DNA of 64,000 nucleotides from Escherichia coli phage vB_EcoS_Ace (MT833283.1), one strand, 5' to 3'. Shown: positions 13,126 to 60,254, counted from the stretch's first letter. Notes: a model not told the origin generated them from the sequence alone. Program-made: numbers and translations.

Positions 13126-13154
13126 TTGCAGGATGCTCAAAATCTTGATATAAT
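13126..13154 (+). promoter_or_regulatory. Early promoter (TTGCAG-N17-TATAAT) with conserved leader
   Basis: TATAAT followed by ATTTATATTGAATTGAGAGAC leader resembling other early leaders; -35 is weaker. Confidence 0.45.
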
Positions 13155-13647
13155 ATTTATATTGAATTGAGAGACATTAGTAAAAATTGATTTTGCTAAT
13201 TTTTCTTGTTTACAATCCGCAATACGGAACAGTTAGGCTGCCCCATTAAGGGTTGTTTTAACTATTACTAGTGTTTATACTGCATTAGTTAATTATCAAT
13301 TAAGTGATCTGCGTACCCTGAATTCGGAAAGGTAAATCCAAACCGTGCATATTTAGCTCGTTATATAGGCAGAGCTTTATATGGGGGTGCGAACGAAAAG
13401 AGCAGCGAATGGTGACACGTCCAGTAGCCACCTACCAATAGGATAGTGAGGGCAATCAGAATAGGCTTAGCGGCCAATGACCTAGGTTCTGATCTGGATA
13501 AGAGTTAAGAGAGCGCAGCACTGAGGTATGATAACTTATTCATACTGCTTGATGATTAATGTTTGTGTAAATGGTAGTAATAGTTGTTCTATTCTTTTGA
13601 ATAGTCCTAAAGAAAGATATCCGAATAACCAACATAGGAGTATTGTT

Positions 13648-16662: not shown

Positions 16663-16691
16663 TTGCTTTTAGGAAAATTTTTCTGTATAAT
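16663..16691 (+). promoter_or_regulatory. Phage T5 PN25-type early promoter
   Basis: Recalled PN25 sequence (pQE-vector T5 promoter) TTTATTTGCTTT.AGGAAAATTTTTCTGTATAATAGATTCATAAATTTGAGAGAGGAG matches except one position in the spacer. Confidence 0.85.
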
Positions 16692-16722
16692 AGATTCATA
16701 AATTTGAGAGAGGAGTTTAAAT

Positions 16723-26957: not shown

Positions 26958-27447
26958 TTTCAAATTGCCCGTATATGCTTTACGGGCATTTGTATCAATT
27001 GAGCAGGAAGGTGATTATTCCGTAATTACAACAAGATATAATAAATATGTGCTAGATAACAGGGAGTTGCCTGGCACATTCTCTCAACGTAGGTTAGCCT
27101 TATTTGAGAAGCGGAAAGAATTACCTTATAAGCTCTATCCTATTCGTGGTAGAATATCAATGTTGTCCCAATTAGTTGGGTCAAAGCGTAGCCAGTTCAT
27201 AGATTCTGATGGAAATCTCATTAACTGGAAGAAAACTACGTTCTACGATGTTATCACGTCTAAAGTTCTGCATTCTGCAAGAATTTATAATGGAAAGTAT
27301 CAATGCTATGTGGCTAAAGTCCCATATCCATTCGTGCTATCCTATGTTCCAGCTTATATAAGCTATATTCTGGTAAATAATAGCCCTGTTATTTATCAAG
27401 TCCATCAAGAGGAGCCTGAAATTCCTAGACTTAGAATAAAATTATGA
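26950..27447 (+). CDS. Hypothetical protein (165 aa)
   Basis: ORF between the polymerase and helicase genes, overlapping both. Confidence 0.4.
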   Translation: MLDFKLPVYALRAFVSIEQEGDYSVITTRYNKYVLDNRELPGTFSQRRLALFEKRKELPYKLYPIRGRISMLSQLVGSKRSQFIDSDGNLINWKKTTFYDVITSKVLHSARIYNGKYQCYVAKVPYPFVLSYVPAYISYILVNNSPVIYQVHQEEPEIPRLRIKL

Positions 27448-28796
27448 AGGTTGTTATATCTAATAAAGCCTATTTCAAGCCCGATGATGAACTCTGGGAT
27501 TATTGTAGTAAACAAACCACTTACCACATCGAGACAATGACTAGTAAATACCCTATTATGTATAAGAATAGTGGTGTTGTTGCTAAAGAGATTAAGTGGA
27601 TTCCCATTACGCGTCTGGATTTGCTAGATGCTAAGGGAGTAAAATACGAATTAGTTGATAAACGCACGTTAGCTCCGGTAAAAATACCAGAACCTCAGTT
27701 CAAGCTGCGTGAAGAAGATCAACTCCCTATATATGAAGAGTGTGATGATACTTGTATTATCAATGGTAAGCCCGGATTTGGTAAAACTATCCTAGCTTTA
27801 GCTCTTGCATATAAGTTTGGCCAGAAAACTCTGGTAATCTGCACCAACACATCCATACGGGAAATGTGGGCTGCAGAAGTTCGTAAATGGTTTGGATTCG
27901 AGCCTGGTATTATAGGTTCTGGAAAGTATAATATTGATCCACCAATCGTGGTCAGTAATATACAAACCGTGAATAAACATGCGAATAATCTTTCTAAGGT
28001 GTTCGGTACTGTTATAGTTGATGAAGTTCACCACTGTGTGGCTACAACTTTCACTAATTTCTTAGAGATCTCGTGTGCTCGCTACAAGATTGGTTTATCG
28101 GGTACGTTAAAACGTAAAGATGGCCTACAAGTTATGTTCAAAGATTTCTTTGGATATAAGATCTTTAGTCCGCCTGTCAATAACACTGTTCCACCCACAA
28201 TCCATAGGTACTCCGTGCCTGTTGAGTTATCAGGAAACCAGAACGTACCGTGGGCATTACGTGCTAACGATGTGTATAACCATCCTGAATATCGAGAGAC
28301 TATTATAAATCTAGCTCATTTATATGTGTCTATGGGGCATAAGGTTCTCTTTGTAAGTGATAGAACAGAACTAATTCAAACAATACTAGAAGCTCTCGCA
28401 CAACGTGGTGTTACAACCTATGAGATTATAGGTGCAACTCCTTTGGATGATCGATTGAGAATCCAGAAAGATGTAGCGGAGGGCGGACCTTGTGTACTTG
28501 CAGCAGCTCAGAGTATCTTCTCAGAAGGTATTTCTCTTAACGAGCTATCTTGTTTAATAATGGGGAGTCTCATTAATAATGAATCTCTCATAGAACAGTT
28601 AGCAGGCCGCGTTCAACGTATTGTTGACGGAAAGCTAGATCCGATTGTTGTAGATTTAATTATGAAAGGAGGTACTGGTTTAAGACAGGCTTCTGGACGT
28701 ATGGCCGTGTATCGCAATAATGCGTGGAAAACTATTACTATGACTCCGGAGAAAGCAGTACAATTAGCTAAAATTGCATTTGGCAACTGCTCATAA
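27444..28796 (+). CDS. SF2 DNA helicase (T5 D10-like)
   Basis: 450 aa; Walker A GKPGFGKT, DEVH box (VIVDEVHH), later helicase motifs. Confidence 0.75.
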   Translation: MKVVISNKAYFKPDDELWDYCSKQTTYHIETMTSKYPIMYKNSGVVAKEIKWIPITRLDLLDAKGVKYELVDKRTLAPVKIPEPQFKLREEDQLPIYEECDDTCIINGKPGFGKTILALALAYKFGQKTLVICTNTSIREMWAAEVRKWFGFEPGIIGSGKYNIDPPIVVSNIQTVNKHANNLSKVFGTVIVDEVHHCVATTFTNFLEISCARYKIGLSGTLKRKDGLQVMFKDFFGYKIFSPPVNNTVPPTIHRYSVPVELSGNQNVPWALRANDVYNHPEYRETIINLAHLYVSMGHKVLFVSDRTELIQTILEALAQRGVTTYEIIGATPLDDRLRIQKDVAEGGPCVLAAAQSIFSEGISLNELSCLIMGSLINNESLIEQLAGRVQRIVDGKLDPIVVDLIMKGGTGLRQASGRMAVYRNNAWKTITMTPEKAVQLAKIAFGNCS

Positions 28797-28808
28797 TTAT
28801 TGTATAAT
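28780..28808 (+). promoter_or_regulatory. Early promoter (TTGGCA-N17-TATAAT) with ATAAATTTGAGAGAGAAAG leader
   Basis: Read directly; followed by a short hairpin and no long ORF before the next promoter. Confidence 0.45.
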
Positions 28809-28879
28809 ATACACATAAATTTGAGAGAGAAAGTTTCGGATTGATAAGAAAGTCCGAAGCAGAAAAATAAAAATTGTAC

Positions 28880-28909
28880 TTGTCAAATCCTCCCGATTTA
28901 ATGTATAAT
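28880..28909 (+). promoter_or_regulatory. Early promoter (TTGTCA..TATAAT) with ATAAATTGATGAGAGAC leader
   Basis: Read directly; precedes the ATG at 28937. Confidence 0.5.
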
Positions 28910-28936
28910 ATATACATAAATTGATGAGAGACAAAA

Positions 28937-29299
28937 ATGAAATTCTTTGATTACGAGAGAATTTACCTCTTAGCTAGAGGAAACTCCGACCTGATTGTCA
29001 AGCTATTTAATAGAATGCTTGCAGAGCCTGATGCTCACCAGTTACTGGTCGGTTCTTCATTCATCTTGAATGAATCAACTATTGTTGATAACCCTTACAA
29101 ATTGTCTAATAGACAACTGGCAGAATATCTAGGAATTCTAAGTCTACGAAATTATGCCGAATATAAGTTTACAAACGATCCGAGTTTGGACATGCAATAT
29201 GTCCCCATATGGATACCACGTTCTGTAATCGACACTAACCCACTAATTGCAATCAATAAATCGAAGATAATCTTTAAAGAGGAAATAAAATATGGCTAA
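28937..29299 (+). CDS. Hypothetical protein (120 aa)
   Basis: ORF immediately after the tandem promoters. Confidence 0.45.
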   Translation: MKFFDYERIYLLARGNSDLIVKLFNRMLAEPDAHQLLVGSSFILNESTIVDNPYKLSNRQLAEYLGILSLRNYAEYKFTNDPSLDMQYVPIWIPRSVIDTNPLIAINKSKIIFKEEIKYG

Positions 29300-30065
29300 G
29301 TCTTGGGGCGAAACTACTGGCGGTTCTAACGATAAAATCGACTTCCTGAAATTCAACAACGGTGTAACTCGTGTTCGTATCGTTTCTGGTGTTCTTCCAC
29401 GTTATGTCTACTGGCTGACTAACAAAGATGGTAATGCAGCTCCGTTTGAGTGCCTGCGTTTCAACCGTACTAAAGAGAGCTTCGTTCGCGGTAAAGCTGA
29501 CCCGATTCACGAAATGGGCTTCTTCGAGAAAGAGCTGGACAAAGATGGTAATCGTGTTCCGCTGAAACCGAAGAAAAACTACATCGCTTTCGTTATCGAC
29601 CGTTCTGATAACAAACTGAAAGTTATGGAAGTTAAAGCTACGATCCTGAAAGGCATCCAGTCTATCATGAAGCAGCTGAAACTGTCCGACCCGTTCGATA
29701 TCGATATTTCTATCGAGAAGAAAGGTAAAGGCTTCGATACTGAGTACGATGTACAGCAGATCGCAGCAATGCAGTTCCAGATGGCTCTGAAAGATCCTAC
29801 TAGCGCAGAAGCTAAACTGCACGCCGCAGATGCCGATATCCTCGGTGAAGCTATGTGTGATGATACTGGTGAGTTCATCAAGTTTGAAAAAGTTCCTTCT
29901 CTGGAAGAAACCTACCCGGTTCCGTCCTACGAAGAGCAGAAAGAAGCTATTCTCGCCTTCATGGAAGGTCGTGAGAAGCAAGACGGCGGTGACGCTAAGT
30001 CTGGTGGTGATGCTGGTTCTCAGAAAGGCATCGACGCTGAAGCTGCTAGCGATCTGGACGACTAA
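29292..30065 (+). CDS. Putative ssDNA-binding protein (abundant, acidic C-terminal tail)
   Basis: 257 aa; host-like codon usage; RVRIVSGVLP..APFECL core and acidic tail ending DAEAASDLDD, reminiscent of gp32-type SSBs; by-eye only. Confidence 0.4.
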   Translation: MAKSWGETTGGSNDKIDFLKFNNGVTRVRIVSGVLPRYVYWLTNKDGNAAPFECLRFNRTKESFVRGKADPIHEMGFFEKELDKDGNRVPLKPKKNYIAFVIDRSDNKLKVMEVKATILKGIQSIMKQLKLSDPFDIDISIEKKGKGFDTEYDVQQIAAMQFQMALKDPTSAEAKLHAADADILGEAMCDDTGEFIKFEKVPSLEETYPVPSYEEQKEAILAFMEGREKQDGGDAKSGGDAGSQKGIDAEAASDLDD

Positions 30066-30075
30066 TAAACCAAGT

Positions 30076-30099
30076 GGAGCTACGGCTCCCTTTCTTTTT
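30076..30099 (+). terminator. Rho-independent terminator
   Basis: GGAGC-TACG-GCTCC hairpin followed by CTTTCTTTTT. Confidence 0.6.
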
Positions 30100-58937: not shown

Positions 58938-60254
58938 TTATTTCCCACGGGAAATTGAGTAAATTCCATAACGCAGTGCGTCACAAAGGTGAGAGTTCGC
59001 ATCATGACGTGGTTTTTCACGTGATAATTTCTCTTCGCCCTCCTGGAAGTCCCACTTGTAGTTCGCTAGGGCGTGGATCAATGAGGTACATGAAGCATCT
59101 ACGATGATCTTACCTTGCTGGAACAGTGCTTGTAGGCATGCCAGACCATCTAGGACAGATTTCTTAGCAGGAGCAGAAGCGATTTCATGTTCATATGCCA
59201 AGTCCTGACGGAACTGAGCAGCAGCGGAGTCTACAAATATACGATCAACGTTATAACGATCTATACAGTGCTGTATGTAAGCAGCGTGTTGAGCTGTAGT
59301 CTTTTCAGCCTGCTGATACTCTTCTAGTACGTAATAAACATCAGTATCATAGTGATACTTGATAGTAAGAACTGCTGTAGGGTCACGATAACCAACGTCG
59401 ATACCAAGTAATGTTTCGAAAGCCTCATCATCTTTAAAGAAGTGACGCATACCTTTGAGGTCTTTAACGTGCTCGATAGCATTGAAGGTATCAAAGATCT
59501 GACCTTCGAATACGGAGAAGTCAGCCTCATATTCTTGACGGAAATAGTTTTTACTAACAGTACGACGCGCTTCTTCGATATCGTTCAGGTCAGCACGTGG
59601 GTTATCCCGATAGGTACCATGAATAGATACCCAGTTAGGCAGCGTCTCATTAAATCCTTTCTCATAGAACTCTTTGAACCAGTTACCACCACGAGGTGTG
59701 GAAATAAACAGAGCCTTAGAGTTTGGCTTATCTAGGGTAGGACGTAGCTGAATATCGAAAGCTGCACCACCAACATCGGAAATCGCTGCTTCGTCAAAGA
59801 TGATGAAGTCATACGAACGACCAACCGCGGAGTCAGCCTGCGCCGCAGAAGCCAGCTTAAAGAGAGAACCATTCGCTAGTTCAATCTCTTTATCTTTTGC
59901 GTTCTCACGTTCAGTCTGTAACCCATACTTCTTAATAAGACCACGAATCTGTGACCAACCTATGTTAGCCAGTGAGTAGTTAGGTGCAACTACTAGCACC
60001 TTTACATTAGGCTCCAGAAGTTTTAGGAACCCAAGTGTATATGCGATGAATGACTTACCTACACGACGTGATACACATGCAGTCACGAAGCGGTGTCTTG
60101 GGTCTTCCAGCGCATTAATGATTGCAATCTGAGGGGCATTAGGTGTAATCCCCTCTTGAGCTAGAATGTTAGAGACTGGCAGACGGAAGAATCGTTTGTC
60201 AATACCAAAGTCAATAACATCTGTGGTGTTAATATAGTCTCTAGAGACTTTCAT
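58938..60254 (-). CDS. Terminase large subunit
   Basis: 438 aa; Walker A-like VSRRVGKSF, Walker B IIFDEAA, C-terminal RNase H-like nuclease fold with acidic residues. Confidence 0.8.
   Translation of the reverse strand: MKVSRDYINTTDVIDFGIDKRFFRLPVSNILAQEGITPNAPQIAIINALEDPRHRFVTACVSRRVGKSFIAYTLGFLKLLEPNVKVLVVAPNYSLANIGWSQIRGLIKKYGLQTERENAKDKEIELANGSLFKLASAAQADSAVGRSYDFIIFDEAAISDVGGAAFDIQLRPTLDKPNSKALFISTPRGGNWFKEFYEKGFNETLPNWVSIHGTYRDNPRADLNDIEEARRTVSKNYFRQEYEADFSVFEGQIFDTFNAIEHVKDLKGMRHFFKDDEAFETLLGIDVGYRDPTAVLTIKYHYDTDVYYVLEEYQQAEKTTAQHAAYIQHCIDRYNVDRIFVDSAAAQFRQDLAYEHEIASAPAKKSVLDGLACLQALFQQGKIIVDASCTSLIHALANYKWDFQEGEEKLSREKPRHDANSHLCDALRYGIYSISRGK

What the first reader, a model, noticed from the sequence alone, without database searches (positions are those of the whole stretch)
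28780..28936. Promoter followed by a short hairpin and no gene: possible small RNA or leader peptide
The promoter at 28780-28808 has the conserved GAGAGAG leader, but the next 70 nt contain only a short stem-loop (TTCGGA…TCCGAA) and at most an 8-codon TTG-initiated mini-ORF before a second promoter at 28880. This could be a short non-coding transcript, a regulatory leader or tandem promoters.
Basis: seen in the sequence. Interest (0 to 1): 0.35.

Follow-up and report, generated by a model that had tools for sequence, protein, structure and literature searches.

The report
Known T5-type tandem early promoters
The "promoter with no gene" is the upstream member of a tandem promoter pair already annotated in phage T5 (P31A/P31B); both promoters point into the same short operon for the phage's single-strand DNA-binding protein, so it is ordinary and not a small-RNA gene.

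Summary
Two near-consensus sigma-70 promoters lie 100 bp apart (-35 at 28780 and at 28880). Between them is only a stable stem-loop (28833-28860), with no credible ORF.

The window is an Epseptimavirus, a T5-like phage. The T5 reference records annotate the same two sites as promoters P31A and P31B. Neither promoter is followed by a terminator, no Rfam family matches, and no peptide is conserved. P1 RNA (from the upstream promoter) should therefore read through P2, the downstream one, as a ~122-nt leader. Both promoters feed a compact unit: a 120-aa ORF (phrog_4258), the D11 single-strand DNA-binding protein (SSB), then a terminator at about 30076.

Gene-free tandem promoters 81-105 nt apart recur at this junction in very divergent relatives. 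Some lineages have one promoter, some three, and some carry a gene between the two.

The hairpin is 100% identical in T5. It persists with different loop lengths in the Klebsiella and Serratia phages I examined. It shows no compensatory covariation, is absent from other tandem-promoter lineages, and its role is unresolved.

Verdict: already known, low interest. The small-RNA and leader-peptide options are not supported.

The parts
28768..28779 (+). A/T-rich upstream block of P1 (TAAAATTGCAT), lying within the last codons of the D10 helicase gene
   Evidence: The same AAAATT-N-TTG context precedes most T5-type promoters in the window. It is conserved in Pectobacterium and Proteus phages. It is also retained as non-coding DNA after a homing-endonuclease insertion in phage S147.
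28780..28808 (+). Promoter P1, the ortholog of T5 P31A: -35 TTGGCA, 17-nt spacer, -10 TATAAT. It overlaps the helicase stop codon at 28794-28796.
   Evidence: Scores 11/12. T5 annotates the homologous site as 'promoter P31A'.
28815..28832 (+). Predicted P1 start site (A at 28815) and initial transcribed sequence ATAAATTTGAGAGAGAAA
   Evidence: The first 15 nt are identical to the leader of the window's PN25-like promoter at 16663. The start-site position is inferred from the published N25 start site (my recollection), not measured.
28833..28860 (+). Stem-loop GUUUCGGAUU-GAUAAGAA-AGUCCGAAGC. It lies at +19 to +46 of P1 RNA and at -83 to -56 relative to the P2 start.
   Evidence: Folds at -14 kcal/mol, z = -6.8. 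The 50-nt window 28819-28868 is 100% identical to T5. A homologous stem occurs in the Klebsiella and Serratia phages examined. No covariation was found.
28861..28879 (+). A-rich tract AGAAAAATAAAAATTGTAC, read as the upstream (UP-like) block of P2
   Evidence: This 19-nt block sits between the hairpin and the -35 of the proximal promoter in T5, Klebsiella and Serratia phages. The same A-rich context occurs at other promoters in the window.
28880..28909 (+). Promoter P2, the ortholog of T5 P31B: -35 TTGTCA, 18-nt spacer, -10 TATAAT
   Evidence: Scores 11/12. T5 annotates 'promoter P31B'. Phage S114 annotates a putative promoter at the same place.
28916..28936 (+). Predicted P2 start site (A at 28916) and 21-nt leader carrying the SD-like GAGAGA at 28926-28931
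   Evidence: Read from the sequence. The SD and AUG are 89% unpaired in the modelled P2 RNA.
28937..29299 (+). First gene of the unit: a 120-aa protein of unknown function (phrog_4258, the T5.125 ortholog)
29292..30065 (+). D11 single-strand DNA-binding protein. Its start overlaps the end of the 120-aa ORF.
   Evidence: Matches phrog_1607 at E = 2e-103. T5 annotation agrees.
30076..30099 (+). Terminator-like hairpin GGAGCTACGGCTCC followed by CTTTCTTTTT, closing the unit
   Evidence: Found by the terminator scan. T5 annotates a putative rho-independent terminator at the homologous place after D11.

Best explanation
The finding is a pair of tandem sigma-70 early promoters, the Epseptimavirus orthologs of T5 P31A and P31B.

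**How it most likely works**
- Host RNA polymerase starts at about 28815 (P1) and about 28916 (P2).
- Nothing terminates P1 RNA, so it runs through the hairpin and the P2 sequence as a ~122-nt 5' leader.
- Both transcripts therefore encode the same short unit: the 120-aa phrog_4258 protein, the D11 SSB, and then a terminator at about 30076.
- Two strong promoters roughly 100 bp apart are far enough apart to be occupied at the same time. That would raise initiation for an SSB needed in stoichiometric amounts, relative to the catalytic pol and helicase genes upstream.

**Shown versus inferred**
- Shown: the motifs, orthology to annotated T5 promoters, absence of a terminator or ORF, conservation of the layout, and the composition of the unit.
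- Inferred: actual initiation at both sites in this phage, simultaneous occupancy, and the dosage rationale.

**The hairpin (lower-confidence sub-claim, about 0.3)**
The 28833-28860 hairpin probably acts at the RNA level as a stability or processing element. It could be a protective 3' stem for upstream pol-helicase mRNA after cleavage in the A/U-rich tract, a 5'-leader structure of P1 mRNA, or both. It is not a terminator or an operator.
For: **Promoter quality**
- Both promoters score 11/12, carry the family's extended motifs, and are enriched over shuffles.

**Orthology**
- T5 records annotate P31A at 75467-75541 and P31B at 75568-75642, at the orthologous helicase / T5.125 junction.
- The window and T5 sequences align base for base here.

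**P1 is kept as a promoter, not just as coding sequence**
- P1 remains intact as non-coding DNA downstream of a homing-endonuclease insertion in phage S147.

**The layout is conserved**
- Among 64 related loci, gene-free tandem promoters 81-105 nt apart recur at this junction, including in lineages whose helicase is only 37-49% identical.
- The same tandem layout occurs at two more places in the window: 20194/20287 (T5 P-K28b/a) and minus-strand 8189/8048.

**Nothing else is encoded in the gap**
- No terminator lies between P1 and the ORF.
- No Rfam family matches.

**Downstream unit**
- The downstream genes are phrog_4258 and the SSB, followed by a terminator-like site.

**Hairpin**
- It is far more stable as + strand RNA than as - strand RNA, because of its G.U pairs.
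- Loop length varies across lineages (8, 3 and 6 nt) while the 3' arm stays exactly 19 nt from the proximal -35.
Against: - No transcript data for this phage or for T5 at this site could be retrieved. The T5 promoter labels are annotations, and I could not read their experimental basis.
- P1 could be weak or occluded in vivo.
- The hairpin shows no pair with changes on both sides. Four cells of the alignment are unpaired, and its scores equal the shuffled controls.
- The hairpin is absent from most other tandem-promoter lineages. Its conservation may be hitch-hiking with the P2 module rather than selection.
Confidence: 0.85

Rival explanations
1. P1 makes a discrete small non-coding RNA. Its 3' end would be set by the hairpin, through processing in the A/U-rich tract, or through collision with polymerase bound at P2.
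For: - A strong promoter with no nearby ORF.
- A stable hairpin at +19 to +46.
- The 28819-28868 segment is 100% identical between T5 and this phage, although the region overall is 87% identical.
Against: - No U-tract follows the stem, and the scan finds no terminator.
- No Rfam match.
- No covariation.
- Relatives with the same tandem layout lack the hairpin.
- Pectobacterium-type phages place the same helicase-end promoter directly in front of the ORF.
Confidence: 0.06
2. The interval encodes a leader peptide or attenuator that controls read-through into the SSB unit.
For: - Two mini-ORFs exist: 28821-28844 and 28841-28870.
- The second lies 11 nt after a GAGAG run and overlaps the hairpin.
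Against: - The first mini-ORF starts 6 nt from the predicted RNA 5' end and has no SD.
- The second loses its TTG start codon in the Klebsiella phages through a 9-nt loop deletion.
- The longer ORFs seen in the Klebsiella and Serratia phages are broken by TGA TAA in T5 and in this window.
- There is no alternative terminator/antiterminator pairing and no terminator.
Confidence: 0.02
3. The gap is an empty gene cassette. The two promoters once flanked a small gene, as in the Vibrio phage Ceto group. P1 and the hairpin would then be leftovers with no selected function of their own.
For: - Ceto-group phages carry a 134-aa gene (phrog_25412) between the helicase-end promoter and the promoter of the 120-aa ORF.
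- Other lineages have only one promoter.
Against: - The gene-free tandem layout with constrained 81-105 nt spacing is found in many independent lineages.
- P1 keeps an 11/12 consensus and stays intact even where it is uncoupled from helicase coding.
- The direction of change (gene gain or gene loss) is unresolved.
Confidence: 0.1
4. The inverted repeat TTCGGA...TCCGAA is a DNA operator for a dimeric regulator acting on P2, centred about 70 bp upstream of the P2 start.
For: - A perfect 6-bp inverted repeat, unique in the window, against 0.03 expected.
- A fixed 19-nt distance from its 3' arm to the P2 -35 in three lineages.
Against: - Half-site spacing varies (12, 3 and 6 nt between arms in T5-like, Klebsiella and Serratia phages), which does not fit a fixed dimer.
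- The stem extends through G.U pairs that exist only in + strand RNA.
- The Serratia phage arms are complementary only as RNA.
Confidence: 0.04

Closest known systems
Bacteriophage T5 early promoters P31A and P31B (annotated in AY543070 / NC_005859)
   Same: - Same junction: D10 helicase stop to T5.125 / D11.
- Same order and the same ~101-nt spacing.
- P1's -10, leader, hairpin and A-tract are base-identical.
- P1 overlaps the helicase stop codon in both.
   Different: - The P2 segment is only about 66-78% identical: -35 TTGTCA here against TTGCTA in T5, and a different spacer and leader.
- The downstream ORF starts with ATG here but ATT in T5.
T5 tandem promoters P-K28b / P-K28a upstream of ligB-D5 (window 20194 / 20287)
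   Same: Two same-strand sigma-70 promoters about 93 bp apart, with no gene between them, ahead of early replication genes.
   Different: No hairpin in the spacer: MFE -1.6 kcal/mol, z = +1.5.
Classical bacterial tandem promoters such as E. coli rrn P1-P2 (from general knowledge, not tested here)
   Same: Two sigma-70 promoters roughly 100 bp apart drive one highly expressed unit, and the upstream transcript reads through the downstream promoter.
   Different: There is no evidence here for differential regulation of the two promoters. This is a phage early unit rather than an rRNA operon.
Intrinsic terminators and sRNA genes
   Same: A stable G+C-containing stem-loop shortly after a strong promoter.
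   Different: The stem is followed by an A-rich tract, not a U-tract, and no terminator call is made.

Membership tests
T5-type sigma-70 early promoter (P31A / P31B orthologs) | -35 and -10 hexamers close to TTGACA / TATAAT with 16-18 nt spacing | tested here: met
   Both score 11/12, with spacers of 17 and 18 nt. There are 7 such sites in 64 kb against 2.6 +/- 1.5 in shuffles.
T5-type sigma-70 early promoter (P31A / P31B orthologs) | Family-specific flanks: an A/T block upstream of the -35, and the transcribed CATAAATT..GAGAG block | tested here: met
   TATAAT-N5-CATAAATT gives 9 matches against 1.7 expected. P1 and P2 are two of the three perfect matches. The flanks are listed beside the other window promoters.
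T5-type sigma-70 early promoter (P31A / P31B orthologs) | Positional orthology to the annotated T5 promoters | tested here: met
   T5 features P31A and P31B lie between D10 and T5.125, and the sequences align there.
T5-type sigma-70 early promoter (P31A / P31B orthologs) | Transcription actually starts there during infection, with early kinetics | not testable with these tools
   No transcript data were accessible. The paper behind the T5 promoter set is not held, and searches for P31A found nothing.
Small RNA gene ended by an intrinsic terminator | G+C-rich hairpin immediately followed by a U-tract | tested here: not met
   The hairpin is followed by GCAGAAAAATAAAAATT. There is no terminator call in 28800-28940 on either strand.
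Small RNA gene ended by an intrinsic terminator | Match to a described RNA family | tested here: not met
   No hit at gathering thresholds over the whole window. The permissive search gave only a chance hit to a C. elegans snoRNA at E = 1.6.
Structured regulatory RNA element | Base pairs maintained by compensatory changes across relatives | tested here: not met
   No pair has changes on both sides. Four one-sided wobble-compatible changes stand against four unpaired cells. All measures equal the shuffled controls. Only 10 distinct sequences were available, so power is low.
Leader peptide / attenuator | Conserved short ORF with a ribosome-binding site, coupled to alternative structures | tested here: not met
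   The mini-ORFs are not conserved across T5-like, Klebsiella and Serratia phages, and there is no terminator to attenuate.

The most novel reading that the evidence does not exclude
The two promoters may produce functionally different mRNA isoforms rather than simply adding up. The long P1 isoform would carry the conserved hairpin, a stability or processing element. In several relatives it would be the only RNA able to translate the phrog_4258 ORF. The short P2 isoform would serve mainly the SSB.

Three observations hint at this:
- In Klebsiella, Serratia and Enterobacter phages the ORF's start codon lies only 2-4 nt after the proximal -10.
- Weak start codons (ATT, GTG, TTG, ATA) are common in this gene family.
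- The hairpin segment is invariant between T5 and this phage.

For this window itself, P2 has a normal 21-nt leader with an SD and an ATG, so the isoform effect would be weaker here. A test for SD sequestration in P1 RNA was negative.
Probability: 0.1. Interest if true: 0.4.

Novelty: already known. Interest (0 to 1): 0.12.

Why it matters
The result has little value as a discovery. It matters mainly for annotation.

- **Annotation transfer.** The apparently orphan promoter belongs to a tandem pair already labelled in T5, so the T5 P31A/P31B labels can be transferred to Epseptimaviruses, of which the one record inspected (S114) marks only P2 and the others list no promoter at this locus.
- **Family-wide trait.** Gene-free tandem promoters ahead of the SSB unit are a deeply conserved, spacing-constrained feature of this phage family.
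- **If the hairpin matters.** If the hairpin or an isoform effect proved functional, it would be a modest example of promoter choice shaping the output of a phage mRNA.

Tried and rejected
1. **Intrinsic terminator or sRNA.** Rejected: no U-tract and no scan hit on either strand. The minus-strand version of the hairpin is weak at -5.3 kcal/mol.
2. **Known RNA family.** None found.
3. **Covariation in the hairpin.** A plain MAFFT alignment misplaced the Klebsiella and Serratia arms, so I rebuilt it with N-padding. The result was no compensatory pairs.
4. **A hairpin as a general feature of tandem promoter spacers.** Rejected. Only the T5/EPS7, Serratia, L058 and Klebsiella spacers are structured. 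The spacers of the other tandem-promoter lineages, and T5 P-K28b/a, are not.
5. **SD sequestration in the long P1 isoform.** The idea was that CCUCC in the P2 spacer pairs with the SD. Rejected as a conserved device. In this window SD accessibility falls from 0.89 to 0.52, but shuffled extensions give 0.61 +/- 0.11 (z = -0.8). T5 and nine other lineages show no effect.
6. **Conserved micro-ORF.** Rejected on frame and stop-codon comparison.
7. **Minus-strand ORFs across the gap** (49 and 45 aa). These run through A/T-rich promoter DNA, and the gap length differs by 2 nt between T5 and this window, so I did not pursue them.
8. **Literature on P31A/P31B or T5 start-site mapping.** Nothing retrievable.

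Full report
**Identity of the window and the locus**

The 1.1 kb around the finding is 99% or more identical to Epseptimavirus genomes (EPS7-like, Demerecviridae). It is 80-90% identical to T5-like Tequintaviruses. The finding occupies the gap between two genes. Upstream is the D10 helicase gene (27444-28796). Downstream is a 120-aa ORF (28937-29299), whose end overlaps the start of D11 (29292-30065). The ORF belongs to phrog_4258, of unknown function. D11 matches the SSB family phrog_1607 at E = 2e-103.

**Checking the observation**

- P1 is TTGGCA (28780), a 17-nt spacer, then TATAAT (28803-28808).
- P2 is TTGTCA (28880), an 18-nt spacer, then TATAAT (28904-28909).
- Both score 11/12 and top the list for 26-32 kb.
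- The window holds only seven sites at 11/12 or better, against 2.6 +/- 1.5 in shuffles.
- The extended T5 motif TATAAT-N5-CATAAATT occurs 9 times against 1.7 expected. P1 and P2 are two of the three perfect matches.
- P1's transcribed start, ATAAATTTGAGAGAG, is identical to that of the window's PN25-like promoter at 16663.
- The hairpin extends to a 10-bp stem, 28833-28842 with 28851-28860. As + strand RNA it folds at -14.0 kcal/mol (z = -6.8). As - strand RNA it reaches only -5.3 kcal/mol, because two of its pairs are G.U.
- The exact inverted repeat is unique in the window, against 0.03 expected.

**This is already annotated in T5**

The T5 records NC_005859 and AY543070 carry 'promoter P31A' (75467-75541) and 'promoter P31B' (75568-75642). 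These lie between D10 and T5.125/D11, the orthologous positions. One Epseptimavirus record, S114, annotates only the downstream promoter.

The window and T5 are 87% identical over helicase to D11. The 50-nt window 28819-28868 is 100% identical. It spans the later part of the P1 leader, the hairpin and the start of the A-tract. The P2 segment and the start of the ORF are the least conserved part, at 66-78%.

I could not retrieve the experimental papers behind the T5 labels. The claim "known" therefore rests on the database annotation.

**What P1 RNA does**

The hairpin is followed by GCAGAAAAATAAAAATT, not a U-tract. No terminator-like site is called between 28800 and 28940 on either strand. 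No Rfam family matches.

P1 RNA should therefore continue through P2 as a ~122-nt leader. This assumes start sites at 28815 and 28916, placed by analogy with the N25 start site, which I recall from the literature and did not measure here. After D11 there is a terminator-like hairpin at 30076-30099. T5 annotates a putative terminator at the same place.

The pair thus heads a compact unit of two promoters, the ORF, the SSB and a terminator. The dosage rationale is that a stoichiometric SSB needs more transcription than the catalytic genes upstream. That rationale is an inference.

**Comparative evidence**

I collected 64 related loci from IMG/VR, all with the helicase upstream, and several GenBank phages. 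The layouts at this junction fall into four groups.
- **Gene-free tandem promoters.** These recur in T5-like and EPS7-like phages, Serratia Kamaji/Slocum, Proteus phage 1, Enterobacter KKP_3711, and divergent metagenomic lineages (L043, L050, L057, L058, L063, L067, L068, L069). Helicase identity in the metagenomic lineages falls as low as 37-49%. Start-to-start spacing is 81-105 nt.
- **Three promoters.** Sugarlandvirus (Klebsiella) and L045 have three.
- **One promoter.** Pectobacterium DU_PP_V, L039, L056, L062 and others have a single promoter. In DU_PP_V it overlaps the helicase end, as P1 does, and sits directly before the ORF.
- **A gene in the gap.** Vibrio Ceto-group phages carry a 134-aa gene (phrog_25412) between the two promoters.

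In phages with a homing endonuclease inserted after the helicase, such as S147, the helicase C-terminus is different. P1 is nonetheless kept intact as non-coding DNA. It is therefore maintained as a promoter and is not merely a by-product of helicase codons.

The window itself has two more tandem pairs. One is 20194/20287, the ortholog of T5 P-K28b/a. The other is 8189/8048 on the minus strand. T5 annotates both.

**The hairpin**

- It is present with the same arms but different loops in T5/EPS7 (8 nt), Klebsiella (3 nt) and Serratia (6 nt, with extra G.U pairs) phages.
- Its 3' end is always 19 nt from the proximal -35.
- Variable arm spacing and RNA-only pairs argue for an RNA hairpin on the + strand rather than a protein operator.
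- In a structure-aware alignment of 10 distinct sequences, no pair changes on both sides. Four one-sided wobble-compatible changes are balanced by four unpaired cells. All measures equal the shuffled controls.
- Most other tandem-promoter lineages have unstructured spacers.

The hairpin is therefore real and conserved within the enterobacterial branch, but it is not shown to be selected as a structure. My best guess, at about 0.3 confidence, is an mRNA stability or processing element next to the A/U-rich tract.

**Ideas tested and dropped**

- **SD sequestration.** In the long isoform, the CCUCC/UCUCUC run in the P2 spacer is predicted to pair with the ORF's SD. The drop in accessibility in this window (0.89 to 0.52) is no greater than with shuffled extensions (z = -0.8). 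It is absent in T5 and nine other lineages.
- **Mini-ORFs.** The first (28821-28844) starts 6 nt from the predicted 5' end and has no SD. The second (28841-28870) loses its start codon in the Klebsiella phages. The longer ORFs in the Klebsiella and Serratia phages are interrupted by TGA TAA in this window and in T5.

**Verdict**

The sRNA and leader-peptide readings are not supported. The feature is the ortholog of promoters already annotated in T5, so it is already known and of low interest.

The residual open points are small. One is the function of the invariant hairpin. The other is whether the two promoters yield isoforms with different coding capacity in relatives where the ORF start abuts the proximal -10.

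Noticed in passing
window 28937; L001 (T5) 9647; loci L015-L036: All Tequintavirus loci have ATT where this window has the ATG start of the phrog_4258 ORF. Codons 2-27 are conserved (14 identical, 8 synonymous, 4 conservative changes), and T5 has no other in-frame start after the upstream TAA. T5.125 therefore probably starts at AUU and is annotated 26 codons too short. Across the 64 loci the start codons are ATG 33, ATT 23, GTG 5, TTG 2 and ATA 1.
   Followed up: partly
L004 1344-1356 (Klebsiella phage), L006 2701-2712 (Serratia Kamaji), L076 447-460 (Enterobacter KKP_3711): In these relatives the ORF's start codon lies only 2-4 nt after the proximal promoter's -10 hexamer, with GGTG or AGTG 8-10 nt upstream. 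RNA from the proximal promoter would lack the start codon or be leaderless. The ORF may therefore be translatable only from the distal-promoter RNA.
   Followed up: partly
window 13126-13528: A T5-type promoter (TTGCAG, 17-nt spacer, TATAAT, leader ATTGAATTGAGAGAC) is followed by about 370 nt with no ORF of 45 aa or more. The next gene is the 969-aa replication-origin-binding-like gene, whose listed N-terminus looks non-protein-like. T5 shows the same gap, from promoter 58999-59073 to T5.108 at 59545. This could be a long leader, an origin region or an RNA.
   Followed up: no
L003 (Salmonella phage S147) 793-1323; also SE3, rutana and H8: An HNH homing endonuclease gene is inserted between the helicase stop and P1. 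It replaces the last helicase codons but leaves P1 intact.
   Followed up: yes
window 20194/20287 (+) and 8189/8048 (-): Two further gene-free tandem promoter pairs occur in the window. They correspond to T5 P-K28b/P-K28a upstream of ligB-D5, and to two annotated promoters upstream of phoH.
   Followed up: partly
L008 (Vibrio phage Ceto) 2589-2993: A 134-aa gene of unknown function (phrog_25412, no Pfam match) occupies the gap between the helicase-end promoter and the promoter of the phrog_4258 ORF. It marks this gap as a site of gene gain or loss.
   Followed up: partly
window 16663-16720: This promoter closely matches what I recall of the classic T5 PN25 promoter and its transcribed region (TTGCTT...TATAATAGATTCATAAATTTGAGAGAGGAG). 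It lies ahead of a 234-aa ORF, and T5 annotates P-N 25 ahead of D2.
   Followed up: no
L037/L004 (Sugarlandvirus) and L045: Three consecutive promoters roughly 100 bp apart lie between the helicase and the ORF. The Klebsiella P2-hairpin-P3 segment aligns at about 74% identity with the T5 P31A-hairpin-P31B segment.
   Followed up: partly
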